Source: Candidatus Aenigmatarchaeota archaeon (GTDB lineage: Archaea; Aenigmatarchaeota; Aenigmatarchaeia; GW2011-AR5; JACRAC01). From it: DNA of 64,000 nucleotides. Where the stretch lies: NCBI GenBank assembly GCA_016187395.1, contig JACPJV010000014.1, positions 891 through 64,890 of the forward strand. Reading direction: 5' to 3'. Shown piece by piece: positions 2,463 to 55,633 of the stretch. The notes under the pieces were generated by a model, which saw nothing but the letters and a program-made list of their open reading frames with translations, was not told the DNA's origin and ran no database searches. A program made the position numbers and the translations under genes. The number at the start of each line of letters is the position of its first letter. Within the stretch, counting starts at the first letter, position 1.

Positions 2463-2572
<110 letters not shown>

Positions 2573-3308: not shown

Positions 3309-6026
3309 GTGATTTCCATGGACTTCAAAGAAATCGAGAAAAAGTGGCAGTTCAGGTGGGGAGATAAATTCTACGAGCCAAAGGGCAAGGGCAGGAAATT
3401 CTTCGTCACATTTCCCTATCCTTACGTAAACGGCGCGCCTCATATAGGACATATTTATACTCTTTTTCGGGTGGATGTTTTTGCCAGGTTCAAACGAATG
3501 CGGGGCTTTGACGTGCTTTTCCCACAAAGCTTTCACGCAACAGGCGAACCACTTGTTGGGGCGATAGAAAGGCTAAGGAAAGGTGATGCTGTCCAGCTAA
3601 ACACGTTCAAGGCATCCGGCGCAACCGACGAGGATATAGAAAAATTCAAGGAAGATCCTATATACGCCGCGAAGTTCTGGAAAAGAAGATGGATGTCTGA
3701 CCTCAAGGCAGCTGCGGCGTCTATAGACTGGTCGCGAACTTTCATGACAGCTACGCCGCACTACAACAAATTCATAGAGTGGCAATATTTGACGTTGAGA
3801 AGGAAAAAACTTGTGGTAAAGGGAACTCACCCGGTTATATGGTGCCCACATGACCAGAGCCCTACCGGCGACCATGACAGGCTGGAAGGCGAGGGAGAAT
3901 ACCCGGTTGAGCATGTGCTCCTGAAATTTGAGGTAAGTTCGTTATCAGAACAGATGGATAATTTCTCTGTTTTTCTGGTTGTTTCTACGCTAAGACCTGA
4001 AACTGTCTACGGAGTCACGAACATCTGGGTTGATGAAAATACGGAATATGTAATGGCTGTTATGAGCAATGAGGTTTGGATAGTTTCTGAGAAGGCCTTC
4101 GAAAAGCTAAGAGATCAAAACAAAGACCCCAGAGAGATAGGAAGAATCAGCGGCTCTGGGCTTCTTGGAAAGAGGGCTGTTAATCCGGTCACAAACAGGG
4201 AAATTCCGATTTTACCAGGAAAGTTTATAGAAACCGACGTGGGCACCGGAATTGTTATGAGCGTACCGAGCCACGCACCATACGACTGGATGGCTGTCAA
4301 AGGGCTTTTATCAAAGCCTGAGGAGATGGAACGCTTCGGAGTGACAGAAAGAGAGCTGCAGCCGATAAAGGTTGTGAATACAGAAGGCTACGGGGAGAAC
4401 CCTGCCGCGGATTTGTGCGAAAAACTGGGTGTAAAATCGCTTGAACAAAGGGATCTTCTGGAGAAGGCAACAAAAGAATTGTATACGAAGGAGTTTTATC
4501 AAGGAACCATAATGCTGGATTATGGCAAATACGGCGGAAAGAGCGTGGAAAAAAGCAAAGACACCCTTGTCAAGGATTTTCTGAAGGCAAAGATCGCTGA
4601 CATACTCTTCGAAACCAGCAATAAAGTCGTGTGCAGATGCGGAACTCGATGCCACGTAAAGGTCCTCAAGAACCAGTGGTTCCTTAAGTATTCGGACAGG
4701 ACCTGGAAAAAGGATGCAAAAAATCACATAAAACTTATGCAAATTCTGCCAGAAGAGGCGAGGACAAACCTGCTCGCAACCATAGACTGGCTTGACGACA
4801 AGGCGTGCGCGCGCAAAAGTGGTCTGGGTACAAAGCTGCCGTGGGACAAGGAATGGATTGTTGAAACATTAAGCGACAGCACGATATACATGGCGTTCTA
4901 TACAATATACGGAATTATAGAGAGGGAAAGGATTGCAGCGGAAAACTTGAATGTGGAAGTATTTGATTATGTTTTCCTTGGCAAGAATCTGGCAAAGGCA
5001 AGGAAATCTGTGGGCATTCAAACACTCAAAAAAATGCGCTCCGAATTCCTGAGATGGTATCCTGTTGACATGAGGGTAAGCGGCAAGGACCTGATCCAGA
5101 ATCACTTTGCCTTCTTTATTCTGCATCACATCGCGCTGTTTTCAAAAAACCACTGGCCTAGAGGCATAGGAATCAACGGGCATGTAACAATAGAAGGCGA
5201 GAAGATGAGCAAAAGCAAGGGCAATGTGCTTTTGCTAAAGGATATGATTGATAATTACAGTTCTGACCTGGTTAGAATTACTGTTGTCGGCTCAGGCGAA
5301 GGTCTCGATGATGCGAACTGGTCTGTCCGGGATATAGATGCATACCGTTCCAGGATAGAATTTATCCTCGAAACAGCAAATAACCTGAAGAACCTGAAAC
5401 CGGTGAAAGAAAGAAATAGTGACAAATGGCTTCTGTCGGAATTACAGCGTATCTTAAAGGAGACGAAAGAGTGTTATGAAAAATTGCTCATAAGAACTGC
5501 CTGCAATTCTGCTGTATTCCGCTCTCACAATGCGCTAAAGTGGTATCTGCGAAGATGCGGTTCTTTTGAGAATTCAAACAAAGCTGCGCTAGAGAAATTT
5601 CTATCAGCCATCATCAGAATAATCTCGCCGCTTGCACCACATACAATGGAAGAGGCATGGCATATGCTGGGAAAAACTACGTCCGTGTCTCACGAGGAAT
5701 GGCCCGAGGAGGATGAAAACCTGTACGACATATATGCAGAGGCTTGCGAAAATTTGCTTAAAAAAATAATCCAGGATGTCGAAAATGTAAAAAGGATGAT
5801 ATCAAAGAAAACTCCTGACCCAAAGAAGGCAACTATATTTGTTGCGAGAAAACCTGCTTTTAAAGATGCCAAAGAGAAAGCAGTTCAATTATCTGTTCTT
5901 AATGAAGCAAAAGACTTTCTGTCTAAAGAGTTACGTCTTGAGGTAAAAATAATCGATGGCGACAAAAGCATAGACGTAAAGGCGGAAAAAGCTACGCCAG
6001 AGAAGCCGGGTATATTCATAGAATGA
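3309..6026 (+). CDS. leuS: leucyl-tRNA synthetase (archaeal type)
   Basis: HIGH motif (APHIGH), KMSKS motif, 905 aa; GTG at 3309 or ATG at 3318. Confidence 0.95.
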   Translation: MISMDFKEIEKKWQFRWGDKFYEPKGKGRKFFVTFPYPYVNGAPHIGHIYTLFRVDVFARFKRMRGFDVLFPQSFHATGEPLVGAIERLRKGDAVQLNTFKASGATDEDIEKFKEDPIYAAKFWKRRWMSDLKAAAASIDWSRTFMTATPHYNKFIEWQYLTLRRKKLVVKGTHPVIWCPHDQSPTGDHDRLEGEGEYPVEHVLLKFEVSSLSEQMDNFSVFLVVSTLRPETVYGVTNIWVDENTEYVMAVMSNEVWIVSEKAFEKLRDQNKDPREIGRISGSGLLGKRAVNPVTNREIPILPGKFIETDVGTGIVMSVPSHAPYDWMAVKGLLSKPEEMERFGVTERELQPIKVVNTEGYGENPAADLCEKLGVKSLEQRDLLEKATKELYTKEFYQGTIMLDYGKYGGKSVEKSKDTLVKDFLKAKIADILFETSNKVVCRCGTRCHVKVLKNQWFLKYSDRTWKKDAKNHIKLMQILPEEARTNLLATIDWLDDKACARKSGLGTKLPWDKEWIVETLSDSTIYMAFYTIYGIIERERIAAENLNVEVFDYVFLGKNLAKARKSVGIQTLKKMRSEFLRWYPVDMRVSGKDLIQNHFAFFILHHIALFSKNHWPRGIGINGHVTIEGEKMSKSKGNVLLLKDMIDNYSSDLVRITVVGSGEGLDDANWSVRDIDAYRSRIEFILETANNLKNLKPVKERNSDKWLLSELQRILKETKECYEKLLIRTACNSAVFRSHNALKWYLRRCGSFENSNKAALEKFLSAIIRIISPLAPHTMEEAWHMLGKTTSVSHEEWPEEDENLYDIYAEACENLLKKIIQDVENVKRMISKKTPDPKKATIFVARKPAFKDAKEKAVQLSVLNEAKDFLSKELRLEVKIIDGDKSIDVKAEKATPEKPGIFIE

Positions 6027-6030
6027 ATAT

Positions 6031-6256
6031 GGTGAAGCAACAAAATAAACCCGATAAGATTTTGTTGCTTCCCATCCAGTGAACCAAACTCAAGCCGGTA
6101 TTATTAATTTGGTTCACTATAAACATAGTTACTCCTACTACTATTATTTATATGTATATAGTGAAACCACAAAATAAACAGGATATCATACTTGTGGTTT
6201 CACATATAGTGAGCAAGGAAGTATTATATCCTGATTTATTCCTTGCATCACTATAA
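6031..6256 (+). repeat. four tandem hairpins of the GTGA...TCACTATA family (two 2-hairpin modules)
   Basis: Stems 6034-6046/6059-6071, 6078-6088/6108-6118, 6161-6172/6192-6203, 6206-6220/6239-6254; paralog at 10229-10319. Confidence 0.75.
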
Positions 6257-6262
6257 GAAAAA

Positions 6263-6556
6263 TTAAAACTTCTCCAGGCTTTCTGTAAGAGGCTCTTTAC
6301 ATTCCTCTGCCCGAAGCCTTCTGTACCTTGACAGGAAACCTTCAAGGAGGAATTCCATTCGCTTAAGCCTTTCCTCTATTCTATCTGAGCGCTTTTCACT
6401 TTCAAGCAGGGCACACCATAACTGTGCGATCTTCACTTCATCTGCGTTGAAGTATGCGCCTCTATGCTGCGCTACATTCTCCAGATAGGCATTAAGCCTC
6501 GCTTCATCTTCTGGCTTCAGAAAACCTTTCCAATTCTTCTCTGTCTTTGTCAACAT
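6263..6556 (-). CDS. hypothetical protein
   Basis: 97-aa ORF, helical charged sequence, no recognisable motif. Confidence 0.45.
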   Translation of the reverse strand: MLTKTEKNWKGFLKPEDEARLNAYLENVAQHRGAYFNADEVKIAQLWCALLESEKRSDRIEERLKRMEFLLEGFLSRYRRLRAEECKEPLTESLEKF

Positions 6557-9393: not shown

Positions 9394-9411
9394 TTGGTTC
9401 ATATGAACCAA
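9394..9411. repeat. 18-nt perfect palindrome TTGGTTCATATGAACCAA
   Basis: Self-complementary; shares the TGAACCAA/TTGGTTCA arms of the hairpin family; 11 nt after spt5 stop. Confidence 0.7.
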
Positions 9412-9989: not shown

Positions 9990-10232
9990 ATGACTACGGT
10001 CCCAGAGCTGCTGAAGAAGAAACTGAATGTGCAAAAGCTAGGCACGTCAAAAGAGGGCGGCACGCAGGAGATTTGCGGCGACCTGAAGCTTTCTGACATC
10101 AAATCTATAGCAAAGGAAAAGTTCGGAGACGACTCTGCGCCTAACGTGAAAATGGTTATTGGCACGTGCAGGAGCTGCGGGGTGACTGTGGACGGTAAAA
10201 ATGCGAAAGAATTTATACAGGAAATAAAGTGA
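9990..10232 (+). CDS. rpl11: ribosomal protein L11 (uL11), C-terminal rRNA-binding domain only
   Basis: 80 aa; ...GDLKLSDIKSIAKEK...VIGTCRSCGVTVDGKNAKEFIQEI matches the archaeal L11 C-terminal half; no N-terminal domain (PPxGPxLG block) upstream. Confidence 0.7.
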   Translation: MTTVPELLKKKLNVQKLGTSKEGGTQEICGDLKLSDIKSIAKEKFGDDSAPNVKMVIGTCRSCGVTVDGKNAKEFIQEIK

Positions 10233-10319
10233 AACAACAAAATAAACCAGATTGCATTTTGTTGTTTCCCGTCTAGTGAACCAAGTTTCTAGTCGGTATT
10301 TTTAACTTGTTTCACTATA
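10229..10319 (+). repeat. 2-hairpin module, paralog of 6032-6121
   Basis: About 80 percent identical over about 90 nt with compensatory stem changes; overlaps the rpl11 stop codon. Confidence 0.75.
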
Positions 10320-15294: not shown

Positions 15295-15428
15295 TCTGCT
15301 TTTAAGCAGAGTATAAGATACCATCAAGAGCGAAGCTCTTGATGTACAGCATGAACTTCGTTCATGCTTGTATCGAACTTCTTTGGCATGCCATGCTTCA
15401 AGAAACCACGCATTTTAGTGCGTGGTTC
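15295..15428 (+). repeat. array of short hairpins, including two 26-nt AC..GT units
   Basis: ATCAAGAGC-GAA-GCTCTTGAT (15323-15343), AGCATGAAC-TTC-GTTCATGCT (15348-15368), AACCACGCA-TTTTAG-TGCGTGGTT (15404-15427); convergent gene junction. Confidence 0.65.
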
Positions 15429-16958: not shown

Positions 16959-19643
16959 ATGGACCCAAAAGAACAACTGCGCCAGAAGTTCTCTGTCGAT
17001 TCAGATAAATACTATAAAGTAAAATTGTTCGAACAGGAAGGCTTCAAGCGACGCAAATGCAATAACTGCGGGAAATTCTTCTGGACCCTTACTGATTCAA
17101 AAAAATGTCCCGACCCTCCCTGCACGACATACGGATTTATCGGAAACAGCCCTGTGCACGGGCGGAAGAAGGATTATATAGAAACGTGGAAGGCTGTTGA
17201 AAGATTTTTTGTCAAAAATGGGCATACTTCTGTGCCTTCGTATCCCACGGTATGCAGGTGGTTTCCGGGACTGTACTTCACGATCGCCAGCATCGTTGCG
17301 TTCCAGCGCGCTGCCGGCGCTACTACGGTCTTTGAATTTCCTGCAAACCCTCTTATCATTCCGCAGGTTTCTTTGAGATTTTCAGACATACCAAACGTCG
17401 GCGTGAGCGGACGCCACCACACAAGCTTCATCATGATAGGACAGCATTCTGAGTATGATCCTGCTGCAAAAAAGGGTTATTGGAAAGACCGCTGTATAGA
17501 GCTGGACTGGCTTTTGCTCACAAAAATATTCAAGATTCCACGTGAGGAAATATCCTTTGTAGAAGACGTCTGGGTTGGCCCTGCTGCATTTGGTTATTCG
17601 CTGGAATATTATGTGCGCGGACTGGAGTTAGGGAATGCAGTTTTTACAGAATTCATCGGCACGCCAGACAACTACAGGCAGATGGATAAAAAAATAATTG
17701 ACATGGGTGCAGGACATGAACGTTTTCTGTGGCTGCTGCACGGAACTCCCACAAGCTACGATTCTGCTTTTGGTCCTGTAATAGAAAAATTAAAAAAGAA
17801 GATTGAATATGATCCTGCTGTATTCAAGAAATACGCCTCTGCCTCTGCGGTGTTAGACCTTACCGATACCGATGATATAGACAAGGCAAGAGTGCAGATA
17901 GCAAAATCGATAGGAGTTGATTATGCAAAATTAAAGTCATCTACTGAACAATTGGAAGCCGCTTATGCCATAGCAGACCATACAAAGACATTATTGTATG
18001 CTATCGTGGATGGGCAGCTGCCTTCCAATATCGGAGGCGGGTACAACCTGCGGGTTGTCCTGAGGAGGGCCCTGGCTGCGAAGAATGAGTTTAATCTTGA
18101 TCTGGATTTGTTTGAAGTCTGCAGCGATCATGCAAACTACCTCAGAAAACTTGCGCCTCACCTGAAGAAAAATCTTTCTCATGTAAAGGAAATTCTTAAG
18201 GTAGAGGAAGACCGGTACGAGAAAAGCAAGGAGAGGGCAAGCCAAAAAGTAACGCAGATCATTGTGAAAAATCCGCAAATAAGCAGTGACGAAATGGGCG
18301 TTCTCTATGAATCGCATGGCATAACACCAGAACTGATAAAGGAGATAGCAAAGGCGCAAAAAATAGAAGTCAATATCCCGCAAAATTTTTATCAAAAGAT
18401 TGCGGAAAGACATGCACAGGAAAAGATCGTGGCGAAGGCAGATATAGATGCCAGTGGCGTTCCTGCTACAAGGCTTCTGTTCTATGAAAACCAGGACATG
18501 CAAAAATTTGACGCTAAGGTATTGAGAATCATAGGAGGCAAGTATGTAATTCTTGATAAAACCGCATTTTATGCGCGCGCAGGCGGACAGGAACCGGATT
18601 TTGGCGTGATAAACGGCTGCAGGGTTTACGATGTAGAGAAACACGGGGATGTTGTGATTCATTCTGTTGAAGATCCGAATTTCAAGGAAAATGAAATCGT
18701 AAAAGGTGAAATAGAATGGGACAGGCGTGTGCAGCTTATGCTCCATCACACAGCAACGCATGTCATCAATGGCGCAAGCCGCAAGGTTCTTGGAAATCAT
18801 GTCTGGCAACACGGTGCATTCAAGGATGTCGAGAAGGCAAGGCTGGACATTACTCATTATGAGGCTTTGGATGCCAAAACTATAGCGAGGATTGAAAAAA
18901 CAGCAAATGACCTGATAAGGAAGGGAATAATCGCGAAAAAACACGTCATTCCCAGGACAGAAGCGGAAAAGAAATATGGATTCACAATATATCAGGGAGG
19001 TGCAGTGCCCCAGGCACAGTTGCGGATAATGGAAATCCCTGGCTTTGACGTAGAGGCTTGCGGTGGCACGCACGAATTAGACCTGAAAAAGCTGTGGGGA
19101 ATTATCATCACATCAAGCGAAAGGATCCAGGATGGCATAGTGAGATTAAATTATGTTGCCGGAACTGCCGCTCAAAAAGTGGCAGAGGAGTATCATAATA
19201 CATTGAAGGACTCTGCCCAGATTCTTGGAACAAAGGAGGAAAACGTTTTGACTGCTGTGAAATCGCTGATAAAAGAATGGAAGAAACTGCGCAAGAAAAG
19301 GGAAAAGGAATTGATAATCAAATCGTCAAAGATTGCAAACGATATCATAAGGAAAAACAAAGGTCTTATTGCAATAGAGGCAGTGGACGGTGACATGAAT
19401 AAACTAAAAGAAATATCACGGCTTGCATCTGAGAAGTATAAACTTTTCATACTGCTTGGCAGAACAGAGGGAAAAACCTCGGTCTGGGTGGCTTCGAAAG
19501 AACAAAATGCCGGGAAAATCGCCAATGATATATGCGATATGATTGGTGGCAGAGGAGGTGGTTCGCATGTGCTTGGCCGGGGATTTGGAAGAGCTTTGAT
19601 AGAAAAAGATATGGAAAAGATAAGGGAGAAATATGAAAAATAA
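16959..19643 (+). CDS. alaS: alanyl-tRNA synthetase (archaeal type)
   Basis: 894 aa; editing-domain HxxxH (HHTATH) and CGGTH motifs; C-terminal DHHA1-like GGRGGG. Confidence 0.95.
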   Translation: MDPKEQLRQKFSVDSDKYYKVKLFEQEGFKRRKCNNCGKFFWTLTDSKKCPDPPCTTYGFIGNSPVHGRKKDYIETWKAVERFFVKNGHTSVPSYPTVCRWFPGLYFTIASIVAFQRAAGATTVFEFPANPLIIPQVSLRFSDIPNVGVSGRHHTSFIMIGQHSEYDPAAKKGYWKDRCIELDWLLLTKIFKIPREEISFVEDVWVGPAAFGYSLEYYVRGLELGNAVFTEFIGTPDNYRQMDKKIIDMGAGHERFLWLLHGTPTSYDSAFGPVIEKLKKKIEYDPAVFKKYASASAVLDLTDTDDIDKARVQIAKSIGVDYAKLKSSTEQLEAAYAIADHTKTLLYAIVDGQLPSNIGGGYNLRVVLRRALAAKNEFNLDLDLFEVCSDHANYLRKLAPHLKKNLSHVKEILKVEEDRYEKSKERASQKVTQIIVKNPQISSDEMGVLYESHGITPELIKEIAKAQKIEVNIPQNFYQKIAERHAQEKIVAKADIDASGVPATRLLFYENQDMQKFDAKVLRIIGGKYVILDKTAFYARAGGQEPDFGVINGCRVYDVEKHGDVVIHSVEDPNFKENEIVKGEIEWDRRVQLMLHHTATHVINGASRKVLGNHVWQHGAFKDVEKARLDITHYEALDAKTIARIEKTANDLIRKGIIAKKHVIPRTEAEKKYGFTIYQGGAVPQAQLRIMEIPGFDVEACGGTHELDLKKLWGIIITSSERIQDGIVRLNYVAGTAAQKVAEEYHNTLKDSAQILGTKEENVLTAVKSLIKEWKKLRKKREKELIIKSSKIANDIIRKNKGLIAIEAVDGDMNKLKEISRLASEKYKLFILLGRTEGKTSVWVASKEQNAGKIANDICDMIGGRGGGSHVLGRGFGRALIEKDMEKIREKYEK

Positions 19644-19756
19644 ATTTATGAGTTTGGAAGGCGAGGGAAAAATTGAGATATTAAGAAAGATTGCAGAACT
19701 TCTCAATACAAGACCTGAGAATGTCTCTCATGTCCTGAAAAAGATGAAGGAAGATA

Positions 19757-20287
19757 TCACGTAGAATTTGATCCTCCTATGAGTATTATTCCGCAGTCTG
19801 GCGGCGCATCCAAAATAGCCAGGCATACTGTCTCTAAAATTTCATTCTTGTTTTCTACCCCTCCTTTGAATGTTCCGCGAAGACTGGATGCTTGCAATTC
19901 ATTTTTATCTCCTTCCAATATCTCAACAGCAACCTGATTCTGAAAGATTTGAGGCAGGGACTCTAAAAACGTTATGCTGTCTTGACAGCATCCTGTCTTG
20001 TGATTCATTGTTACAACTGTCAGGCCGTTTTGAATTATCTGGGATTTCCGGAAATTGCTCAGCGCCTCGTAGAATACGTATTGATCCAAAGAAAATTGCT
20101 GCTGCTGTTGCTCTTGCTGTTGCTGTTGCGGATTAATGAAAGATCCCAGAGAAAACACTATGTAGGTAATAGAAGACATTCCAAAAATCAGGATGATTGC
20201 TAAGGCTCCTAGCACTATCTTGGTTCTTTTTTTCATCTCTATCAACTCTTTCGCGCTCAGCGGGTGCAAACTGCTGATGCGAAGCAT
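19757..20287 (-). CDS. hypothetical membrane-anchored protein with poly-Gln tract
   Basis: N-terminal TM, PQQQQQEQQQQQ tract, 176 aa. Confidence 0.45.
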   Translation of the reverse strand: MLRISSLHPLSAKELIEMKKRTKIVLGALAIILIFGMSSITYIVFSLGSFINPQQQQQEQQQQQFSLDQYVFYEALSNFRKSQIIQNGLTVVTMNHKTGCCQDSITFLESLPQIFQNQVAVEILEGDKNELQASSLRGTFKGGVENKNEILETVCLAILDAPPDCGIILIGGSNST

Positions 20288-20359
20288 CAGCCATTCACCT
20301 TTTCGCTGCGTTTTTGCAAAAACTTGCTCGCCTAGTTCGCTTGAATAGCCCCGCCAGGA

Positions 20360-20397
20360 TGTTCTGCATACCAGCTTTTGCGAAAGCTGGATACGCC
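20360..20397 (-). other. tRNA-Gln T-loop (59/60) intron, paralog of the tRNA-Arg intron
   Basis: GGCGTAT-CCAGCTTT-CGCA-AAAGCTGG-TATGCAGAACA; same flanks and same bulge-helix-bulge geometry as 2524-2558. Confidence 0.7.
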
Positions 20398-20418
20398 TTC
20401 GAACCTGGGTCCGCAGGT

Positions 20419-20773
20419 ATCTCGCTAAGCGTGGAGCTTTCTATGGCAGTTGGCACATAAGACAATACATTTCTTTATTTCGGAGAGAAATCTTGATTTT
20501 GAATATCCATTTCTTTCTATTGAATCGGATATTCCAAATTCTTTTTTGTTTTTATTCAAGTGGTGGAATTCTAGACATGCTGGGTGTTTCTCTCCGCATT
20601 TCAGGCATCCTAACCTCTCTTTGTATTCCCTAATCCATTTCCTGAGTTCATATTTTCTCCTTTTCGTTCTTTCTATTTCTTGCTTCTTGTGTTTCTTGTA
20701 GTACTGTTTATTCCACCGTGTTTTGTATTCTCTCCTTTCTTCCCTGTCTTTATGTGACATTCTCCACCTCAGT
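20419..20773 (-). other. 355-nt bulge-helix-bulge intron at tRNA position 37/38 carrying an HNH ORF
   Basis: 13-nt leader + 336-nt ORF + 6 nt; leader 20772-20762 pairs with 20425-20436; 3-nt bulges at both exon-intron junctions. Confidence 0.7.
20425..20760 (-). CDS. HNH (His-Me finger) endonuclease, intron-encoded
   Basis: CLKCG...LEFHHLN...LCANCHRKLHA; Lys/Arg-rich N-terminal half; GAGGTGGAGA directly upstream of ATG 20760; the track extension to 20799 is tRNA exon sequence. Confidence 0.75.
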   Translation of the reverse strand: MSHKDREERREYKTRWNKQYYKKHKKQEIERTKRRKYELRKWIREYKERLGCLKCGEKHPACLEFHHLNKNKKEFGISDSIERNGYSKSRFLSEIKKCIVLCANCHRKLHA

Positions 20774-21148: not shown

Positions 21149-21198
21149 ATAGTCATGCAAGGAAAGAATTAGGTATGGTATTTCCTTGCTTCACTATA
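21149..21198 (+). repeat. hairpin of the ATAGT...TCACTATA family
   Basis: GCAAGGAAA-15 nt-TTTCCTTGC; close paralog at 55035-55082. Confidence 0.6.
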
Positions 21199-26185: not shown

Positions 26186-26210
26186 ATAGTCATTTATTTG
26201 GTTCACTATA
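26186..26210 (+). repeat. 3' half-copy of the TTGGTTCACTATA hairpin family
   Basis: ATAGTCATTTATTTGGTTCACTATA between convergent RPA and radA stops. Confidence 0.5.
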
Positions 26211-27342: not shown

Positions 27343-27403
27343 TTAGCAGAAACAAGGCTTCTGCTGCATCGAAGAACTCCTGCCGGAGTTCTTCTTATGT
27401 TAG
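27343..27403 (-). repeat. 61-nt direct repeat copy 1 (two hairpins)
   Basis: 60/61 identical to 27756-27816; immediately 3' of the PRC-barrel gene stop. Confidence 0.85.
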
Positions 27404-27407
27404 AGAT

Positions 27408-27689
27408 CTACAAAATATCTTTCTCCGATATTATGACGTAATCACCGACGGATTTCACGCTGGAGAAAGGTATCAAAATCCTGCTGTTCTCATCCCTATT
27501 CAGGTCCATGTTGACCACGTGTTTTGACGGCTCTGCTATGATGAGATTCAGAAGTTCTCCGGATTCTGAAACAAAAATCACGTCTCCGACAATTCCGAAA
27601 TTGCGCCCGGTTTCTTCTGATATAACCGTCTTCCCCAGAATATCTCTTCCTCTGTGCGGCATATCTATCCCTATTACTTTCATTCCCAT
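27408..27689 (-). CDS. PRC-barrel domain protein
   Basis: 93 aa, ILGKTVISEETGRNFGIVGDVIF...IPFSSVKSVGDYVII pattern. Confidence 0.65.
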   Translation of the reverse strand: MGMKVIGIDMPHRGRDILGKTVISEETGRNFGIVGDVIFVSESGELLNLIIAEPSKHVVNMDLNRDENSRILIPFSSVKSVGDYVIISEKDIL

Positions 27690-27755: not shown

Positions 27756-27816
27756 TTAGCAGAAGCAAGGCTTCTGCTGCATCGAAGAACTCCTGCCGGA
27801 GTTCTTCTTATGTTAG
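27756..27816 (-). repeat. 61-nt direct repeat copy 2
   Basis: Immediately 3' of the Orc1/Cdc6-like gene stop (27822-27824). Confidence 0.85.
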
Positions 27817-27821
27817 CGATG

Positions 27822-28961
27822 CTATCTTGTAACAAAGGCTGTTTTTGCCCTGGAAGAAAGCTTATAGACGTATGATTTTTCAAAGGGGTTTCTCTCCACG
27901 AGTCCTGCTTTCATAAGCCTGTGCAAAATATTATTTATCGCCCGCAAAGCGTGCTGCTTTGATTTGTACCTGCCTGCAAAAAGATCTGCAAGATGCGATA
28001 TGGGAGCCGGGTTAACCAATGCTTCCAATATATGACGCTGCTTTTCTGGAACAGAGCTTGCATTTATCATAGGCTGCATCGCCCCGGGTTCTTCTATGAT
28101 ACTTCTGCTTATTGCTGCTGCCCCTGATTCATGGGCTTTGCGCATTGCAGAATCACAAAGCCGCAATATTTCCCTTGGAAAGCCCGTTGACTGTTCATAT
28201 ATGTAATCAATTGCATCCTGCGTGAAAATGTTTTTACCGCCTGCATGCGCCATTCTTCTGTCTATAAGCTGGAGAGTTTCTTCTTTTGTTAGGGATAAAA
28301 CCCCTATTTTTACCGATATCCGCTTTCTCAAAGTTTCCAAGCGCTCTCCCAAATCACGCTCAAAGCGCGGCAAGGCGGCGAGAATCAAAACCATTCCATC
28401 AACGTTATCGCCTAAGACGCGCATCCACTTGAGAACTTCGTCTGATGCTTCGTGTGCCTCGTCGCATATTATCAGAAGATATTTCATTTTCCTTCTTTTC
28501 TGTTGTTCTGCAATAAATTCAGGCAGCTGGTATATACTCTTGGCTCTTTTCTTTCTGAAAAATCCTGACTCGAAATACGGATTTAATATATCTATAAAAT
28601 TATCCGGATTGAGAGGAGGCTTGGGGAGATAAATTACGTGCCTTGTGCCAGCAAGACGCTTTGACAGCCATTTAAGGACGGTGGTTTTTCCGGATCCGGT
28701 TGGGCCTAAAAGCAGAATTATTTTATTCCCTGATAAGACAGCATCTTCCAATTCTGCTGTTTGCTGCTTATAACCGACAAGGGCCTCCGGAAGAATTTCA
28801 AACGAGAACGGGTTGCGTGAAAATCCAAGCGAACTCATCCAACTCTGATAGGATCCTTTATTTTTGGCCAATACTTCAGAATTTTGGCTACCAGGAGGGT
28901 CTTCTATATCAGCATTTTTTGCCATATTGGGTAGCCCACGAGGGCGAAACCTGTCCAGCAT
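27822..28961 (-). CDS. Orc1/Cdc6-like AAA+ ATPase with C-terminal winged helix
   Basis: Walker A GPTGSGKT, Walker B LIICDEAHE, GFPREILRLCDSA lid region, C-terminal wHTH (ILHRLMKAGLVER). Confidence 0.6.
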   Translation of the reverse strand: MLDRFRPRGLPNMAKNADIEDPPGSQNSEVLAKNKGSYQSWMSSLGFSRNPFSFEILPEALVGYKQQTAELEDAVLSGNKIILLLGPTGSGKTTVLKWLSKRLAGTRHVIYLPKPPLNPDNFIDILNPYFESGFFRKKRAKSIYQLPEFIAEQQKRRKMKYLLIICDEAHEASDEVLKWMRVLGDNVDGMVLILAALPRFERDLGERLETLRKRISVKIGVLSLTKEETLQLIDRRMAHAGGKNIFTQDAIDYIYEQSTGFPREILRLCDSAMRKAHESGAAAISRSIIEEPGAMQPMINASSVPEKQRHILEALVNPAPISHLADLFAGRYKSKQHALRAINNILHRLMKAGLVERNPFEKSYVYKLSSRAKTAFVTR

Positions 28962-28990: not shown

Positions 28991-29227
28991 GTTCACGTTG
29001 ATTTAAAGATTATGCGTGAAGTTCACGTGTAGTGCGTGATGTTCACATGAAGTTCACGTGAATGGGGTGAACTTGCCGTGAAGTACGCGTGAATATCGCA
29101 AAACAGACGTTATTTTCCAGTATTTCTCCATAATTTCCATGTTATTTCTTATACTTAGTTCACGTTTAGTTCACGTCTAATAATTAAGTTCACGTGAAGT
29201 TCACGGTATTAAAAAGTGAAGTTCACT
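28991..29227. repeat. iteron field: nine direct GTTCAC hexamers in two clusters around an AT-rich spacer (candidate replication origin)
   Basis: GTTCAC at 28991, 29021, 29041, 29052, 29158, 29169, 29188, 29199, 29221; inverted GTGAAC at 29067. Four copies are embedded in GTGAAGTTCAC. Confidence 0.55.
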
Positions 29228-30761: not shown

Positions 30762-31213
30762 ATACGCTCACCTTTTCAGAGGTTCATCGAGCTGTACGCA
30801 TTCATCGTCTTTCGGTATATTTTTCCGATAAATTTTTTCCTGTGGCCAGAAGCGCGCTGATAGCTTGAAAGCAGGCACTGGGCTATCAGAAGCAGTTCTC
30901 TCCGCAGAGAATTTTTTCCTGTGAATGGTTGCTTAAGCGATCTGCCCTTTACTGCCTCATGCCGCATTATATTCCATTCTTTTTCGGCAATTAGCTTTGA
31001 CATCAAAAGAAGAAGCAAGAAAACTTCTTAAATTCTATCAGAGCTAAAAATTGATAGTGTGGTGGCGTGAATTTATTTCTTTGCATTTTCAAATAACTTC
31101 AATACACCTTCACTAATCTGAAACGGCCTGGGAGCGTAGAACTTAGATTCCTGAAACACTGGGCACTTCCAGCAATGTCTCAGATTTAAGAATTCGTTCT
31201 CCATAAATTGCTA

Positions 31214-31957
31214 ATGAACATTCCAGAGATAGATATCAAGAGTAAGTTGAAAGAGATTTCCGAGATGGGTTTTATAAAGGCTCTACGAAAAAGTGACACT
31301 GGTATAGGATTCACTCTTGAAACTGAAATGGGAATAAAAGAAAACAATCTGAAGAATGAAGATTTTACTTACAAAGGAGAGAAAGTAGAATTAAAGACGC
31401 AAAGGAAAGGGACGACTTCTAACATAACGTTGTTTACAAAAGAGCCCGTGAAAGGGGAGCTGAACGACAAGAAACTCATAGACAAATATGGTTACAAGAA
31501 CGGGCATGGCAGAAGAGCGTTAAAAATAACACTCACTACCAGATACTATACACCACAAGGACTAAAATTGGAAATAGATGAAAATAGCAAGAATATATTT
31601 GTAACACACAAGACTGATGGTAAGCTCTGGTATTGGACAGTTTCTGATATAAAATTCAAGTTGGGCAACCTTCTTCTTGTATTTGCAGCTAAAAAGAGGA
31701 AAGGCGAAAGCGAATATTTCCATTACAATGAAGCATACTATTTCACGAATTTTGACGAAGAGACTTTCTTTAAGCTCATCCAGACGGCAAGAATAGTAGT
31801 CGACCTAAGAATGCATCTTAGGCCGACAGGCACAGTAAGAAACCACGGAACAGCCTTTAGGATAATAAATCTTGAGAATTTGACATCTTGCTATAAGAAA
31901 AAAGAAACAATAGTTTCAGAAAATAAGAGCTTTAGATTTTCTGAAGGACCACAATAG
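31214..31957 (+). CDS. type II restriction endonuclease, MvaI/BcnI family
   Basis: Recalled BcnI blocks align: GIGFTLETEMGIKENN, GEKVELKTQRKGTTSNITLFTKEPV, LLLVFAAKK...FHYNEAYYF, VVDLRM...NHGTAFRI. Confidence 0.7.
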   Translation: MNIPEIDIKSKLKEISEMGFIKALRKSDTGIGFTLETEMGIKENNLKNEDFTYKGEKVELKTQRKGTTSNITLFTKEPVKGELNDKKLIDKYGYKNGHGRRALKITLTTRYYTPQGLKLEIDENSKNIFVTHKTDGKLWYWTVSDIKFKLGNLLLVFAAKKRKGESEYFHYNEAYYFTNFDEETFFKLIQTARIVVDLRMHLRPTGTVRNHGTAFRIINLENLTSCYKKKETIVSENKSFRFSEGPQ

Positions 31958-33209
31958 CTTCTTGCGTCATTGTATTAGATATGTCACCTTTCTTGTTAGA
32001 CGGAGAGTTTCTCGAGGGTATTCTTTTGCTCGGTATATTTCTGAATATAGTATTAATGTGGTTCATGTCGTGGTCTTCACCAAGTTCTTGTATTATTTTG
32101 TGAGTAGGGATCTGGTAGCCCTTCACTGTTCTATTGCCTACAACCATACAGATTCTAGCGCCCTTTCTAGTAACACGGTTAAGTTCTACGAAACATTTGT
32201 CTAAATCTACATAGAAGCTTAGTACGTCGTTTGCACGTTGCACATCTTTTTGTTCGATTTTTGTAACATATTCGTTAAGTGTAGGTGTTATTACTTTCCA
32301 CAAATTATCAGCTTTCGTGCCGCCCAACAACATTTTATCTATGATATTAACAACTTTCTCATCAAAGCCTAGCCATTTCAAAGACAATCTTGAAAATTGG
32401 CCGTAAGCAACGGTTGTTCTAGAATCTCCATAAGGCGGGGAAGTGACTATTAAGTCTACGCAGTCATCGGGAACAGACGTCTTCTTTCGTGTGTCTTCCA
32501 GCAGAACAATAGGTTTCGGCGGATTATCTAAGACATTATGAAACTCCGCAATTTTAGGCATGCATTTCTCAATATGTTTTTTGAATATCGCAAGAGGTTC
32601 TGGATTATAACCTTTAAAATCGTCTTCGCTTATCCTATGCAGTTTAAAGCCTCCTTGCCTGACGTTGCTAGATTTTCTTACGGTTTCTGAAAAACAAGTT
32701 AAAAAGAATGCTTTGAATTTGTTAGGAATATTATTTATAGCGTCTCTTATTTTTGCCAAGTCTTCTATCGCTTTGGGCTTAAACCAGAAATCTATATTGA
32801 AGAATTTGGGCGGCTTCACAGGCTCAGAAGTTTCTATTCTTTGAAGTAATTTTGAATAAGTTTTGTTCAATTCGTCTATATCATATAGTGTTGTCTTGCT
32901 TTCTGCGATTAGTTTAGTTAGAGGGTTTATATCAATCCCAAAGCTTTCTTTACCGGTCAGCATAGATTCTACCAAAACAGTTCCGCTGCCACAGAATGGG
33001 TCTAAAATAACATCACCGTTTTTCAAATTTTCTTTAATTAATCTAGCTGCGATCTGGGGTATCATCATTGCCGGATAAGAATGTAAGCCGTGAGTATAAT
33101 ATTTTGTATCAGCTCCCTTAAAATCCCAAGGTGTTTCTAAATATAGATTTTGTTGTAAAGGCATCATGCTTCTTTTATTGTTGATTTTTAACATATAACC
33201 ACCTCTCAC
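31932..33209 (-). CDS. DNA methyltransferase (SPPY type; probably N4-cytosine or N6-adenine)
   Basis: Motif I DPFCGSGT, motif IV TSPPYG; 26-bp convergent overlap with the endonuclease gene. Confidence 0.85.
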   Translation of the reverse strand: MRGGYMLKINNKRSMMPLQQNLYLETPWDFKGADTKYYTHGLHSYPAMMIPQIAARLIKENLKNGDVILDPFCGSGTVLVESMLTGKESFGIDINPLTKLIAESKTTLYDIDELNKTYSKLLQRIETSEPVKPPKFFNIDFWFKPKAIEDLAKIRDAINNIPNKFKAFFLTCFSETVRKSSNVRQGGFKLHRISEDDFKGYNPEPLAIFKKHIEKCMPKIAEFHNVLDNPPKPIVLLEDTRKKTSVPDDCVDLIVTSPPYGDSRTTVAYGQFSRLSLKWLGFDEKVVNIIDKMLLGGTKADNLWKVITPTLNEYVTKIEQKDVQRANDVLSFYVDLDKCFVELNRVTRKGARICMVVGNRTVKGYQIPTHKIIQELGEDHDMNHINTIFRNIPSKRIPSRNSPSNKKGDISNTMTQEAIVVLQKI

Positions 33210-33799
33210 ACCCTAGCAATCCTCCCAGCATCGGTCAATGCGAACTTCCCGTTCTCCTTTGCCAGCAAACCCTCGGATTCCAAATCTTTTATATAGCGGT
33301 ATACCTGCGCCCTGCTTATCTTGAGCTTCTTTATCAGCTGGGTTATGTTAGCTGTTCTGTCCACCTCATTCAGCAGCTTCTTGTAATTGCCGTTTATCGT
33401 GAAGGCAAGCTTTGGCATGAACACGGCCTCATTATTCCCTCCCCAATATACTATCTTCTTTATCCTGTCAGAGCGCGCATAGCATGCGAGAAGCACGCCA
33501 AAGGCCTGAGGCTTTCTTCCCTGGGATATGTCAACGTAAATCTCCGTTCCGGCCGGTATGGAATCTATCAGCTTCATCACGCCTTCAGAAACTGCCGGGA
33601 TATCATAAACATCGACGTTTCTCTCGACTATCTTCAGCGTGTTGTTGAAGGCTTTTTTGATGAACTTTATTGAATTCAGCTGCGCGGCCTTCGCCTTATT
33701 GTCAACAAGCAGAATAAGCCTCTTCGGGTTGAACTCCTTGATAGAAAGAACCGTAGAGTCGCTCTTCTCGTATACGGTAGAAATCAGCACCCCTGACAT
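33206..33799 (-). CDS. Csa3-like regulator (CARF-like Rossmann domain + C-terminal wHTH)
   Basis: N-terminal beta-alpha pattern with VDISQGRKPQAFGVLLA; C-terminal ITQLIKKLKISRAQVYRYIKDLESEGLL; GTGA overlap with the methyltransferase gene. Confidence 0.5.
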   Translation of the reverse strand: MSGVLISTVYEKSDSTVLSIKEFNPKRLILLVDNKAKAAQLNSIKFIKKAFNNTLKIVERNVDVYDIPAVSEGVMKLIDSIPAGTEIYVDISQGRKPQAFGVLLACYARSDRIKKIVYWGGNNEAVFMPKLAFTINGNYKKLLNEVDRTANITQLIKKLKISRAQVYRYIKDLESEGLLAKENGKFALTDAGRIARV

Positions 33800-33943
33800 G
33801 ACAGAATTGTGGTTTCATGCCGTATATATAGATTTGTGTTTTGTGAGATATGTATCGGATTTGTGAGAATTATGATACTGGGTTGTTGAAGCGCTGCGGG
33901 GTTGTTTTTGAGGTCTAACGGATTTAAGCGCTCGCTTTAGAAT

Positions 33944-52857: not shown

Positions 52858-52973
52858 TGAAGACCGATACTCCGCCGCCTGAAGGCGGTGGTTTCGCAAG
52901 GTCTTCAGCATCGCGGAAACCTCCTGTATCATATCCTCTGCCTGAAGGCAGAGGTTTTATGGGGAGGTTTCCG
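52858..52973 (+). ncRNA. two-hairpin structured element, copy 1
   Basis: GAAGACC...GGTCTTC enclosing CCGCCGCC-TGAA-GGCGGTGG, then CGGAAACCTCC...GGAGGTTTCCG enclosing CCTCTGCC-TGAA-GGCAGAGG. G.U pairs favour the plus strand. Confidence 0.5.
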
Positions 52974-55001: not shown

Positions 55002-55034
55002 TGAATCTCAACTTTCTTGAATATAGAGAGCGTT

Positions 55035-55082
55035 ATAGTCATGCAAGAAAGAAATTAGCATTATATTTTCTTGCTGATTATA
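55035..55082 (+). repeat. hairpin, paralog of 21149-21198
   Basis: ATAGTCATGCAAGAAA-16 nt-TTTCTTGCTGATTATA. Confidence 0.6.
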
Positions 55083-55185
55083 CAAGCAGAAGCGAAGCTT
55101 CTGCTGTACATGGAAAACTGAAAGTTTTCCAGTACTGATGAACCGAAGGTTCATCATGTACAACAGGAACCCCGTTCCTGTTTGT
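55082..55185 (+). repeat. four tandem 26-nt palindromic hairpin units
   Basis: Units 55082-55107, 55108-55133, 55134-55159, 55160-55185. Each is AC + 8-9-bp stem + triloop (GAA x3, CCC x1) + GT; stems are all different. Confidence 0.8.
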
Positions 55186-55234
55186 ATGTGAACCAAACAG
55201 TATAATATCCTGATTATTTATTTGGTTCACTATG
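55186..55234 (+). repeat. GTGAACCAAA...TTTGGTTCACTAT hairpin
   Basis: 10-bp perfect stem 55188-55197/55221-55230; loop shares ATATCCTGA with 6226-6234. Confidence 0.75.
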
Positions 55235-55236
55235 AT

Positions 55237-55349
55237 TTGCTCCATATACTCCCACGCCTAAAGGCGTGGGTTTCTTTGAGCAAAGCATGTCGGAAGCCTT
55301 CTGTATCATATCCTCCGCTTAAAAGCGGAGGTTTATGTGGAGGCTTCCG
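55237..55349 (+). ncRNA. two-hairpin structured element, copy 2
   Basis: Paralog of 52858-52973 with compensatory changes in both stems of the second hairpin. Confidence 0.5.
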
Positions 55350-55633
55350 CCTATAATTGGAACCCTTTGTTTTCGTTTTATGCGGGTTTTAAGCCAAAAC
55401 AAAGAGTTTAAATAGTTTCCGAATATCTATCCGTAAGGATATTACCAACAACGCGAGAGAAGAGCTGGTGTATTATCATGTTCACAATCCAGTGCCGGAC
55501 TGAACCGGCACTATTCACGGAATTTGAAAATGAATAAGGTATAGCATTAGCTCTGTTTCTTGCCTGAATATCCGACAAAAGGTGTGTGAGATGAATGCAC
55601 GTTTTCCTTCAGGAAAACGTGAGGTGTGTTCAA

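What the first reader, a model, noticed from the sequence alone, without database searches (positions are those of the whole stretch)
6031..6256. Covarying hairpin family (GTGA-stem-loop-stem-TCACTATA) filling the gap after leuS; adjacent loops are mutually complementary
- Four hairpins occupy the 236-nt convergent gap. All are framed by (ATA)GTGA...TCAC(TATA), but the inner stems differ and are self-complementary: AGCAACAAAAT, ACCAAA, AACCACAA, GCAAGGAA.
- The first two form a module that recurs at 10229-10319, with a compensatory G-C to A-T exchange: GTGAAGCAAC..GTTGCTTC versus GTGAAACAAC..GTTGTTTC.
- The loop of hairpin 3 contains CAGGATAT (6179-6186) and the loop of hairpin 4 contains ATATCCTG (6226-6233). 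These are exact reverse complements, so a kissing-loop interaction or an inverted duplication is possible.
- Further members lie at 9394-9411, 15404-15427, 21149-21198, 26186-26210, 55035-55082 and 55186-55234. Nearly all sit immediately 3' of plus-strand genes, most at convergent junctions.
- The GTGAA/TTCAC arms are also the half-sites of the iterons at 28991-29227.
- Possible roles: a hairpin-type 3'-end or terminator element (unusual for archaea, which rely on oligo-U), a MITE/REP-like element, or a protein-binding palindrome.
Basis: seen in the sequence. Interest (0 to 1): 0.6.

Follow-up and report, generated by a model that had tools for sequence, protein, structure and literature searches.

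The report
Hairpin-forming miniature repeats of Aenigmatarchaeota
The four hairpins after leuS are copies of a roughly 50-base palindromic repeat that has spread, mostly as back-to-back pairs, through the gaps between genes of a group of tiny groundwater archaea, and it looks like a miniature jumping-DNA element rather than a transcription stop signal.

Summary
The hairpins are real. The gap 6024-6262 folds into four stem-loops (z = -10.9 as DNA).

They are copies of one ~50-nt unit: TATA(N)G, variable stem, conserved asymmetric loop, stem', CTATA. The complementary loops of hairpins 3 and 4 are the same unit in opposite orientation, not a kissing pair.

A covariance model finds 9 full units and 1 truncated unit in the window. 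All four pairs are tails-out (-,+) doublets.

The family is multi-copy in the source groundwater metagenome. It is dispersed through many Candidatus Aenigmatarchaeota MAGs (locus or name-tag GC about 36-53%) and was found in no other lineage or viral contig sampled. Doublets are 95-99 or about 149 nt long.

Stem covariation is strong: 90.5% of cells paired against 73% in shuffles.

Position and orientation follow the background of intergenic gap types, with no convergent-junction or strand bias and no U-tract. Two nested insertions and two population indels each equal one module plus one TA.

Best reading: a non-autonomous, TA-targeting MITE family resembling Correia and REP/BIME elements. Its mobilising enzyme is unidentified. 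Any effect on transcripts is untested.

It is a new family of a known kind.

The parts
6028..6077 (-). Unit 1 (CAACAAAAT stem). Left half of doublet 1. It starts one base after the leuS stop codon.
   Evidence: CM R1 57.1 bits; nhmmer E 1.3e-10; 13-bp perfect stem (I3).
6075..6121 (+). Unit 2 (ACCAAA stem). Right half of doublet 1, ending TTCACTATA.
   Evidence: CM 41.6 bits; 11-bp stem (I8).
6122..6156 (.). AT-rich spacer between the two doublets, with only a weak hairpin.
   Evidence: Sequence and fold.
6157..6207 (-). Unit 3 (ACCACAA stem). Left half of doublet 2. Its loop carries CAGGATAT.
   Evidence: CM 65.6 bits; 12-bp stem (I5).
6204..6255 (+). Unit 4 (GCAAGGAA stem with one bulged A). 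Right half of doublet 2. Its loop carries ATATCCTG. It is the most abundant subfamily in the metagenome.
   Evidence: CM 50.2 bits. Logan contig depth 124-258 against about 9 for the flanks.
10225..10319 (.). Doublet 3: 10225-10274 (-) plus 10272-10319 (+). It is a paralogue of doublet 1. The TGA stop of the L11 C-domain ORF (10230-10232) lies inside the unit's GTGAA.
   Evidence: CM 49.4 and 39.7 bits; alignment with doublet 1; Pfam PF00298 for the ORF.
21149..21198 (.). Single unit in a divergent (promoter-side) gap. Its orientation is ambiguous: 35.0 against 34.2 bits on the two strands.
   Evidence: gene context.
26186..26210 (+). Internally deleted 25-nt copy (ATAGTCAT-TTATTTGGTTCACTATA) in the 33-nt RPA/RadA convergent gap.
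   Evidence: nhmmer partial hit; CM E 0.06; exact TTCACTATA.
55034..55083 (-). Left unit of a composite doublet upstream of dnaG.
   Evidence: CM 30.7 bits on the minus strand against 18.4 on the plus strand.
55084..55183 (.). Four small hairpins (9-bp stems; GAA, GAA, GAA and CCC loops), each separated by TA/GTAC, inserted at the centre of the doublet. A form without them, joined with a 2-nt TA overlap, exists in three runs.
   Evidence: Joint 55080->55185 skips 104 nt with overlap 2.
55184..55234 (+). Right unit (ACCAAA stem) of the composite doublet.
   Evidence: CM 63.7 bits.
15322..15368 (.). Pair of small GAA/TTC-loop hairpins after the P1 gene, of the same small-hairpin class. A variant lacking 68 nt (15303-15370), bounded by TA, exists in two runs.
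   Evidence: Joint 15302->15371.

Best explanation
The hairpins are copies of a non-autonomous mobile repeat, a MITE of the Correia / REP-BIME style.

Structure (shown):
- The basic unit is about 50 nt: 5'-TA|TAG(T/C)G, variable 6-9-nt arm, conserved asymmetric centre (..ATATCCTGATT.TTT.. or ..ATGTCGGTATT..), complementary arm, C(A/G)CTA|TA-3'.
- Units are propagated mainly as tails-out doublets of 95-99 nt.
- Some doublets carry extra small GAA-loop hairpins at their centre, giving about 149 nt in one MAG and about 200 nt at window 55034-55234.

Mechanism (inferred):
- New copies insert at TA dinucleotides and gain one TA. Every module is therefore bounded by TATA, and insertions pile up next to or inside earlier copies.
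- Copies survive only where they do no harm: in intergenic DNA, often hard against stop codons, and seldom close to start codons.
- The enzyme acts in trans and has not been identified. The TA duplication and TAGTG termini point to a TA-specific DDE transposase of the IS630/Tc1-mariner type. This attribution rests on established knowledge of that superfamily and was not tested here.
- The conserved centre of each unit would then be the subterminal binding site.
- The perfect, covarying self-complementarity of each half, and the GCGAAGC-type mini-hairpins, suggest that a folded single-stranded form also matters. This is inferred.
- Effects on neighbouring transcripts (3'-end protection, blocking of read-through) are possible by-products and are untested.
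For: - One family: nhmmer and CM R1 find 9 full units and 1 truncated unit in the window, and no others with filters off.
- Multi-copy with unrelated flanks: Logan contig depth rises from about 9 to 124-258 over units, contigs break there, and loose ends disagree. The same holds at 55041-55382. Up to 7 identical 57-nt cores and about 20 near-identical 149-nt composites with different flanks occur in one MAG.
- Lineage-wide but patchy: 73 loci were fetched with one stem subfamily, nearly all Aenigmatarchaeota MAGs (GC about 36-53% by MAG name tags; 37% and 50% measured for two metagenome contigs), plus about 7 chance bacterial hits. There are 221 CM hits in 617 kb. In 916 kb of unbiased LeuS loci from 80 archaeal genomes, hits occur in only 5 Aenigmatarchaeota loci. 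Units are AT-rich (GC 0.2-0.4) whatever the host GC.
- Defined architecture: adjacent pairs are -+ 59, +- 6, -- 5, ++ 3. Lengths peak at 95-99 and 148-149 nt, and there are no direct repeats outside TATA.
- Insertion signature: a doublet inside the loop of another unit (L098) and a doublet inside the central junction of another doublet (L115) each equal element TAG...CTA plus one extra TA. The population joints 55080->55185 (104 nt, 2-nt TA overlap) and 15302->15371 (68 nt, TA at both edges) fit the same rule.
- No functional positioning: tandem/divergent/convergent counts are 46/23/18 against a background of 290/114/109. Single units in tandem gaps are 8 co-oriented and 8 anti-oriented. Only 6 of 118 element clusters fall inside crude ORFs.
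- Tails lie within -10..+20 nt of stop codons in 20 of 88 cases, and within 0..+20 nt of start codons in 5 of 105.
- No Rfam family matches.
Against: - No transposase or any recurrent ORF family lies next to the elements.
- No longer element bounded by the same termini was found. The only two ORF-containing (-,+) pairs enclose a methyltransferase-like protein and a small HTH-like protein.
- The (TA)n context makes the size of the duplication ambiguous. It could be 2 bp or TA/TATA-specific insertion without duplication.
- A DDE enzyme that binds double-stranded ends does not explain why each half stays self-complementary through compensatory changes.
- It also does not explain why the loop is more conserved than the stem.
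- Near-identical units in genomes whose LeuS proteins each share only 46-51% identity with the window's need either horizontal spread or strong constraint. No viral carrier was found.
- Elements occupy orthologous gaps in genomes about 65% identical in flanking proteins: dnaG upstream, and leuS upstream. This is also what a selected host function would give.
- Gene calls used for context were crude longest-ORF calls.
Confidence: 0.68

Rival explanations
1. REPIN/RAYT-like or IS200/IS605-like system. The units are recognised and moved as folded single-stranded DNA hairpins by a single-copy HUH (Y1) enzyme. The flanking TATA would be the cleavage or target motif rather than a duplication.
For: - Inverted doublets resemble REPINs/BIMEs.
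- Structure, loop and flanks are conserved while the stem sequence is free to covary.
- The small hairpins include GCGAAGC-type motifs, known as very stable DNA mini-hairpins. That stability is established knowledge, not tested here.
- Elements persist at orthologous gaps across about 65%-identical genomes.
- There is no multi-copy transposase nearby, as expected if the enzyme is single-copy.
Against: - No ORF with an HUH...Y motif of IS200 type occurs in the 1.5 Mb held.
- No gene flanked by units looks like a nuclease.
- RAYT classes are reported only in bacteria, and only IS200-type TnpA in archaea (PMC6006769).
- There is no GTAG/CGTC head tetranucleotide.
- The nested insertions show gain of a TA, which HUH transposition does not normally give.
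Confidence: 0.15
2. Host cis-acting RNA elements. The hairpins are transcribed at gene ends and act as 3'-end barriers, terminators or processing sites. Doublets would serve both directions between convergent genes.
For: - In the window most copies follow plus-strand genes and fill convergent gaps.
- Tails often abut stop codons, in 20 of 88 cases.
- Predicted folds are strong.
- Base pairing is maintained by covariation.
- G.T-type mismatches outnumber A.C-type mismatches 11 to 3 on the unit strand, but the copies are not independent.
- The symmetric doublet makes the orientation test weak.
Against: - Across the family there is no enrichment at convergent or 3' positions.
- About a quarter of elements lie in divergent, promoter-side gaps.
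- Single units show no orientation bias.
- There is no oligo-T tract, which is the known archaeal termination signal. The scan found no terminator-like site at the units.
- Distribution among related genomes is patchy.
- Identical copies and nested insertions indicate transposition.
- No RNA data exist.
Confidence: 0.1
3. Double-stranded protein-binding palindromes related to the origin iterons, for example Orc1/Cdc6 or another GTGAA/TTCAC-binding protein.
For: The iterons at 28991-29227, next to an Orc1/Cdc6-like AAA+ gene, contain TTCACGTGAA.
Against: - The shared motif is only a 5-mer.
- GTGAA/TTCAC is replaced by other outer stems in many family members.
- The covariance model has no match in the iteron region.
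- The half-sites in a unit are about 35-40 bp apart rather than abutting.
Confidence: 0.03

Closest known systems
Correia repeat-enclosed elements (CREE) of Neisseria
   Same: - Both are small non-coding elements with two main size classes: about 105 and 155 bp for CREE, against 95-99 and about 149 nt here.
- Both have inverted ends starting TATAGTG(G/A)A.
- Both show target duplication and have no known transposase.
- Both lie mostly in intergenic DNA.
- CREE ends come in two subterminal flavours, CCGGTACGG and TCAGGACAA. Here the loops come as ACCGR-type and ATCAGGA-type (PMC5039591 and PMC2649163).
- The 10-mer TAAATCAGGA sits at the same offset in window unit 6204-6255.
   Different: - Beyond the terminal heptamer the similarity is not clearly above chance. 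20 of 500 shuffles match the best variant, and alignment scores are not significant.
- Here each half is its own perfect hairpin with covarying arms.
- No CREE core or IHF site is evident here by eye, though none was searched for.
- The host is an archaeal lineage, whereas CREE are described as unique to Neisseria.
REP / BIME / REPIN elements with RAYT transposases (bacteria)
   Same: - Both are short imperfect palindromes that are extragenic and highly repeated.
- Both are arranged as inverted doublets and mosaics with linker modules.
- In both, sequence classes differ in the stem while keeping pairing.
   Different: - There is no GTAG/CGTC tag here.
- No RAYT-like gene was found.
- A TA is gained on insertion.
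- The units are AT-rich rather than GC-rich.
- RAYTs are so far reported only in bacteria (PMC6006769).
TA-duplicating MITEs derived from IS630/Tc1-mariner elements (e.g. ERIC/MITEEc1, RUP, Stowaway). This comparison is from established knowledge.
   Same: - Both have a TA target with TA duplication.
- Termini are of the YAGTG kind.
- Sizes are about 50-150 nt.
- Both fold into a long hairpin and have an intergenic location.
   Different: - No parent IS with matching ends was found.
- The inner part of the inverted repeat is not conserved in sequence, only in complementarity. This is unusual for a transposase-binding TIR.
Archaeal MITEs and PATEs (Sulfolobus SM elements, Haloquadratum PATEs) and the MITE census of prokaryotes
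   Same: Non-autonomous small repeats are known in archaea. High MITE densities have been reported for DPANN genomes such as Altiarchaeum and a Woesearchaeon (PMC11602168).
   Different: - The papers searched and read do not mention this family or Aenigmatarchaeota.
- PATEs derive from IS200/IS605 and lack TIRs and TSDs.

Membership tests
MITE (non-autonomous TIR transposon) | Small, non-coding and multi-copy, with unrelated flanks | tested here: met
   Units are about 50 nt and doublets 95-149 nt. There are identical copies with different flanks. Metagenome depth is about 13-27 times that of the flanks.
MITE (non-autonomous TIR transposon) | Terminal inverted repeats | tested here: met
   Doublet ends read TATAGTG.../...CACTATA. 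Unit arms are 11-14 bp.
MITE (non-autonomous TIR transposon) | Target-site duplication | tested here: inconclusive
   Two nested insertions and two population indels each fit the gain of one TA. The (TA)n context allows other readings. No repeats occur beyond TATA.
MITE (non-autonomous TIR transposon) | A related autonomous element or transposase with the same ends | tested here: not met
   None was found in 1.5 Mb of loci. Whole genomes were not available.
REP/REPIN-RAYT | Palindromic units in inverted doublets | tested here: met
   Adjacent pairs: -+ 59 of 73.
REP/REPIN-RAYT | Conserved GTAG or CGTC head | tested here: not met
   Heads read T(A/G)TA(N)G. GTAG occurs in only one subfamily, TGTAGCGGAC.
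REP/REPIN-RAYT | Single-copy Y1 (HUH) transposase gene flanked by units | tested here: not met
   There is no HUH..Y ORF. ORFs flanked by units are unrelated to nucleases. Genome coverage was partial.
Correia element (CREE) | 26-bp Correia inverted repeat (TATAGTGGATTAA...) | tested here: inconclusive
   The terminal 7-9 nt are identical. The rest gives p about 0.04 to not significant.
Correia element (CREE) | Conserved core with an IHF site; host Neisseria | not tested
   The host is archaeal, so that half of the feature is not met. The CREE core and its published IHF site (CTTCAGCACCTTA, PMC2649163) were not searched for. The 95-99-nt doublets leave little room for a core between the two units.
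Intrinsic (hairpin plus U-tract) terminator | G+C-rich stem followed by a T-run, oriented with the gene | tested here: not met
   No terminator-like site lies at the units. Unit GC is 0.2-0.4. There is no orientation or position bias.
Known RNA families (Rfam 15) | Match at the gathering score | tested here: not met
   The only hit is a tRNA-like match elsewhere. The best matches in the gap score 14-20 bits against thresholds of 40-100.
Any transcript-level element | Transcript 3' ends or stable RNA at the units | not testable with these tools
   No RNA run holds the window.

The most novel reading that the evidence does not exclude
The units are not ordinary cut-and-paste MITEs. They would be structure-selected hairpins handled as folded single strands by a still unknown enzyme conserved across Aenigmatarchaeota. 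That would make this an archaeal counterpart of the bacterial REPIN-RAYT partnership, or a domesticated hairpin-recognition system. It would explain why the loop and TATA flanks are conserved across genomes with about 50% LeuS identity while the stems covary. A weaker corollary is that the family shares ancestry, or a transposase type, with the orphan Correia elements of Neisseria.
Probability: 0.15. Interest if true: 0.7.

Novelty: new member of a known kind. Interest (0 to 1): 0.42.

Why it matters
- Aenigmatarchaeota are DPANN archaea with small, tightly packed genomes and no cultured, genetically tractable member. A repeat family that makes up a visible share of their scarce intergenic DNA bears on several practical problems:
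  - assembly, because Logan contigs break at every copy;
  - gene-end annotation, because some stop codons lie inside units;
  - strain typing.
- It also gives a ready covariance model (50 positions, 11 pairs) for marking these elements.
- Finding the mobilising enzyme would add an archaeal case to the small set of hairpin-type miniature repeats (REP, Correia, ERIC). The biology of these is still partly unresolved, and for Correia the transposase is unknown.
- For the original question the result is a caution. Covarying hairpins at convergent gene ends in one window looked like a terminator class. With 200 copies from many genomes, the positional signal disappears.

Tried and rejected
- Kissing loops: rejected. 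The complementary loops are the same unit inverted.
- Known RNA family: nothing in Rfam at gathering or relaxed thresholds.
- tRNA-derived origin: no tRNA was found by ARAGORN.
- Terminator scan: nothing at the units.
- Own genome in genome contigs: 0 hits for a module pattern.
- A loop-based pattern in genome contigs gave only 3 chance hits in bacterial genes.
- Viral contigs: 0 hits.
- RNA runs: none.
- Search for a partner gene, with no candidate found:
  - all-against-all blastp of 583 ORFs from the loci;
  - ORFs lying between close element clusters;
  - ORFs bounded by (-,+) units 0.5-3 kb apart;
  - a regex screen for the IS200-type HUH/Y motif in six frames of 1.5 Mb.
- C/D-box sRNA and TATA-box promoter ideas. 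The unit has no C box. Distances from the tail TATA to start codons show no peak.
- Homology to Correia TIRs: alignment-score shuffles are not significant once TATAGTG is fixed. The longest common substring at matched offset is marginal, 20 of 500.
- Strand asymmetry of G.T against A.C mismatches is 11 to 3, but the copies are not independent, so it was not used.
- The depth spike in run X4 at 19489-20722 probably reflects the poly-Q (CAG) stretch of the 176-aa ORF. This was inferred from position only and not checked.

Full report
**What is in the gap.** The window comes from a groundwater metagenome. Its LeuS is at best 51% identical to LeuS of Candidatus Aenigmatarchaeota MAGs, and the genome itself is not in the species collection.

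The 236-nt gap lies between the leuS stop (6024-6026) and the stop of a minus-strand 97-aa ORF (6263-6265). It holds four hairpins with perfect stems of 13, 11, 12 and 8(+4) bp. It folds far better than shuffles: DNA -47.6 kcal/mol with z -10.9, and RNA z -8.9.

The repeat finder shows that hairpins 1 and 3 are direct copies (82% over 34 nt). Hairpins 2 and 4 share their 3' ends. Hairpins 3 and 4 are inverted copies of each other (37-nt arms, 76% complementary). So the complementary loops CAGGATAT and ATATCCTG are one asymmetric loop seen on both strands. No kissing interaction needs to be invoked.

**One unit, read both ways.** When oriented alike, all copies align to one unit. It reads TATA(N)G, variable arm, centre (..GTAT.ATATCCTGATT.TTT..), complementary arm, CTATA.

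nhmmer and a covariance model built from 40 diverse units (R1: 50 positions, 11 pairs) were run on the window with filters off. They find nine full units and one truncated copy, and nothing else.
- The four pairs are 6028-6077(-)/6075-6121(+), 6157-6207(-)/6204-6255(+), 10225-10274(-)/10272-10319(+) and 55034-55083(-)...55184-55234(+).
- All four pairs are tails-out, with the CACTATA ends outside.
- 21149-21198 is a single unit.
- 26186-26210 is an internally deleted copy.
- Hairpin 1 lacks the TCAC frame on its inner side.

**It is a dispersed, multi-copy family.** Logan contigs of four groundwater runs were laid on the locus. Depth jumps from about 9 to 124-258 over the units, contigs end at them, and the loose ends run into many different sequences. 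The dnaG-upstream cluster behaves the same way.

A loop-plus-tail pattern found two JGI metagenome contigs (GC 37% and 50%), each with a doublet. A pattern for one stem subfamily (GTGAACCAA...TTGGTTCACTAT) found 73 loci in the species collection. Nearly all are Aenigmatarchaeota MAGs with GC of about 36-53% by their name tags, plus about seven chance hits in bacteria.

The model gives 221 matches in 617 kb of these loci. In an unbiased sample, 916 kb around leuS in 80 archaeal genomes, it hits only five loci, all Aenigmatarchaeota. No viral contig carries the pattern. Units are AT-rich (GC 0.2-0.4) whatever the host GC.

**Architecture.** Among adjacent units, 59 pairs are (-,+), against 6 (+,-), 5 (-,-) and 3 (+,+). 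Doublet length peaks sharply at 95-99 nt and at 148-149 nt.

The longer form, abundant in one MAG, carries two small hairpins between the units (AAAAAGC-AAA-GCTTTTT and CGGAAAAC-YTTG-TTTTCCG). The window's dnaG-upstream doublet carries four, with GAA, GAA, GAA and CCC loops.

Such tight hairpins (stem of at least 8 bp, loop 3-4 nt) number 21 in the window against 2.9 expected, and 19 of them are intergenic. In the element-rich loci their loops are mostly GAA or AAA. The modules are separated by TA or GTAC.

**Covariation.** On the hand-checked alignment, 86% of cells pair against 68% in shuffles. Ten of 11 pairs show double changes. The covariation score is 0.426, against 0.126 for shuffles and at most 0.12 for slid controls.

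On 100 distinct model-aligned units, 90.5% of cells pair against 73%. There are 145 double-change cells against 32.5. The score is 0.383, against 0.102 for shuffles and at most 0.096 for slid controls. That alignment is fitted to the model and so leans towards the structure.

Among units not selected by the fetch pattern, the 3' CTATA and the central ATATC..ATT..TTT are the most conserved columns. The inner stem is the least conserved. It separates subfamilies, each of which has many copies.

**Position and orientation.** I used crude longest-ORF gene calls.
- Element clusters lie in tandem, divergent and convergent gaps 46, 23 and 18 times. The gaps themselves number 290, 114 and 109. Only 6 clusters fall inside ORFs.
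- Single units in tandem gaps are co-oriented 8 times and anti-oriented 8 times.
- Tails lie within -10..+20 nt of a stop codon in 20 of 88 cases. They lie within 0..+20 nt of a start codon in 5 of 105, and there is no preferred distance to starts.
- No T-run follows the units.

The convergent, 3' picture seen in the window therefore does not generalise. The pattern is what purifying selection on random intergenic insertions would leave.

**Signs of insertion.**
- In L098 a doublet sits inside the loop of an ACCAAG unit.
- In L115 a doublet sits in the central junction of another doublet.
- In both cases, removing TAG...CTA plus one TA restores the intact sequence.
- In three runs a form joins 55080 to 55185, without the four small hairpins, with a 2-nt TA overlap.
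- In two runs a form lacks 15303-15370, which begins with TA and is followed by TA.
- Outside the TATA there are no direct repeats.

The simplest reading is TA-targeted insertion with a 2-bp duplication. The (TA)n context leaves room for TA/TATA-specific insertion without duplication.

**Who moves them.** I found no candidate.
- No recurrent ORF family lies near elements.
- No nuclease-like ORF lies between close clusters or between (-,+) units 0.5-3 kb apart.
- No IS200-type HUH/Y ORF occurs in 1.5 Mb.
- Nothing in the window looks like a transposase by eye. Pfam scans of ten ORFs, most of them next to elements, found none.

A TA duplication and YAGTG termini are the mark of IS630/Tc1-mariner transposons. 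This is established knowledge and was not tested here. HUH enzymes of the REP/RAYT kind are reported only in bacteria, with only IS200-type TnpA in archaea (PMC6006769).

**Comparison with known elements.** The ends TATAGTG(G/A)A match the Correia repeat of Neisseria, for example tatagtggattaacaaaaaccggtacgg and tatagtggattaaatttaaatcaggacaa (PMC5039591). [quoted passage not shown]

Here the loops are ATCAGGA-type or ACCGR-type. The 10-mer TAAATCAGGA sits at the same offset in window unit 4. With TATAGTG held fixed, however, the rest is at best marginally above chance: 20 of 500 shuffles in one test, and not significant in another. I therefore treat Correia as the closest analogue, not as a relative.

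REP/BIME/REPIN elements share the palindromic units, inverted doublets and mosaics. They differ in lacking a TA gain and in having a GTAG tag and a RAYT gene.

MITEs are known in archaea, and high densities have been noted in DPANN genomes (PMC11602168). Generic intergenic palindromes have been called REPs in archaea (PMC12306157). None of the papers searched and read mention this family or Aenigmatarchaeota repeats.

**What stays unexplained.**
- Each half of a doublet keeps perfect self-complementarity through compensatory change.
- Loops and flanks stay nearly the same in genomes whose LeuS proteins each share only about half their residues with the window's.
- Elements occupy the same gaps (dnaG upstream, leuS upstream) in genomes about 65% identical in flanking proteins, although with different unit arrangements.

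These points keep two rivals alive: a single-strand hairpin mechanism, and some host use of the elements. No RNA data exist to test a transcript-level role.

**Verdict.** The best-supported explanation is a non-autonomous, TA-targeting hairpin repeat family specific to Aenigmatarchaeota. It is a new family of a known kind, and its enzyme is still to be found.

Noticed in passing
window 28991-29227, with gene 27822-28961 (-): A cluster of GTTCACGTGAA-type dyad repeats, resembling origin-recognition boxes, lies next to an Orc1/Cdc6-like AAA+ gene (Pfam AAA_22 1e-13; ORC-CDC6-like weak). This is probably the replication origin.
   Followed up: partly
window 9990-10232 (+): An 80-aa ORF matches only the C-terminal RNA-binding domain of ribosomal protein L11 (PF00298, 2.7e-11). 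No N-terminal domain is readable upstream in any plus frame. Its TGA stop lies inside the GTGAA of the adjacent repeat unit.
   Followed up: partly
window 2463-2527 (+): An Rfam tRNA match (33.6 bits, just above the gathering score) that ARAGORN does not call. It lies directly before the ORF starting at 2529.
   Followed up: no
window about 31200-37250: A low-GC island (0.35 at 34-36 kb). By eye from N-terminal sequence, not scanned, it holds two DNA methyltransferase-like ORFs (31932-33194 and 36015-37250) and a DUF262/GmrSD-like ORF (35008-36018). It is probably a restriction/defence island.
   Followed up: no
window 27371-27394 and 27784-27807: An identical 24-nt hairpin (GAAGAACTCC-tgcc-GGAGTTCTTC, with shared flanks tgcatcga/ttatgt) lies on both sides of the 93-aa gene 27408-27689. 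A contig joint 'goes back 166' was seen here.
   Followed up: no
window 52935-52954, 55251-55270, 55312-55331: A third hairpin type: (t)atcatat/catatact-CCNCNGCC-tetraloop-GGCNGNGG-TTT. It is G+C-rich and followed by a short T-run. Contig depth over 55212-55382 is 4-9 times that of the flanks, so it is also repeated.
   Followed up: partly
window 55554-55667: Contig depth is about 6 times that of the flanks, over the hairpin CACGTTTTCC-ttca-GGAAAACGTG. This lies just upstream of the likely true dnaG start (MGKLAQNF, by comparison with L135). It is another repeated module, and the ORF start at 55595 is probably too early.
   Followed up: partly
window 9394-9411: The perfect palindrome TTGGTTCATATGAACCAA lies in the 36-nt Spt5/169-aa convergent gap. 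It reuses the ACCAA stem and could be a relic of two truncated unit tails. The models do not detect it.
   Followed up: partly
window 15246 -> 18582 (runs X3, X4): A contig joint skips 3335 nt at a depth (26-69) well above that of the genome. It runs from the Ala/Pro-rich tail of the P1 gene into the 894-aa ORF at 16959-19643. It is probably a low-complexity cross-match.
   Followed up: no
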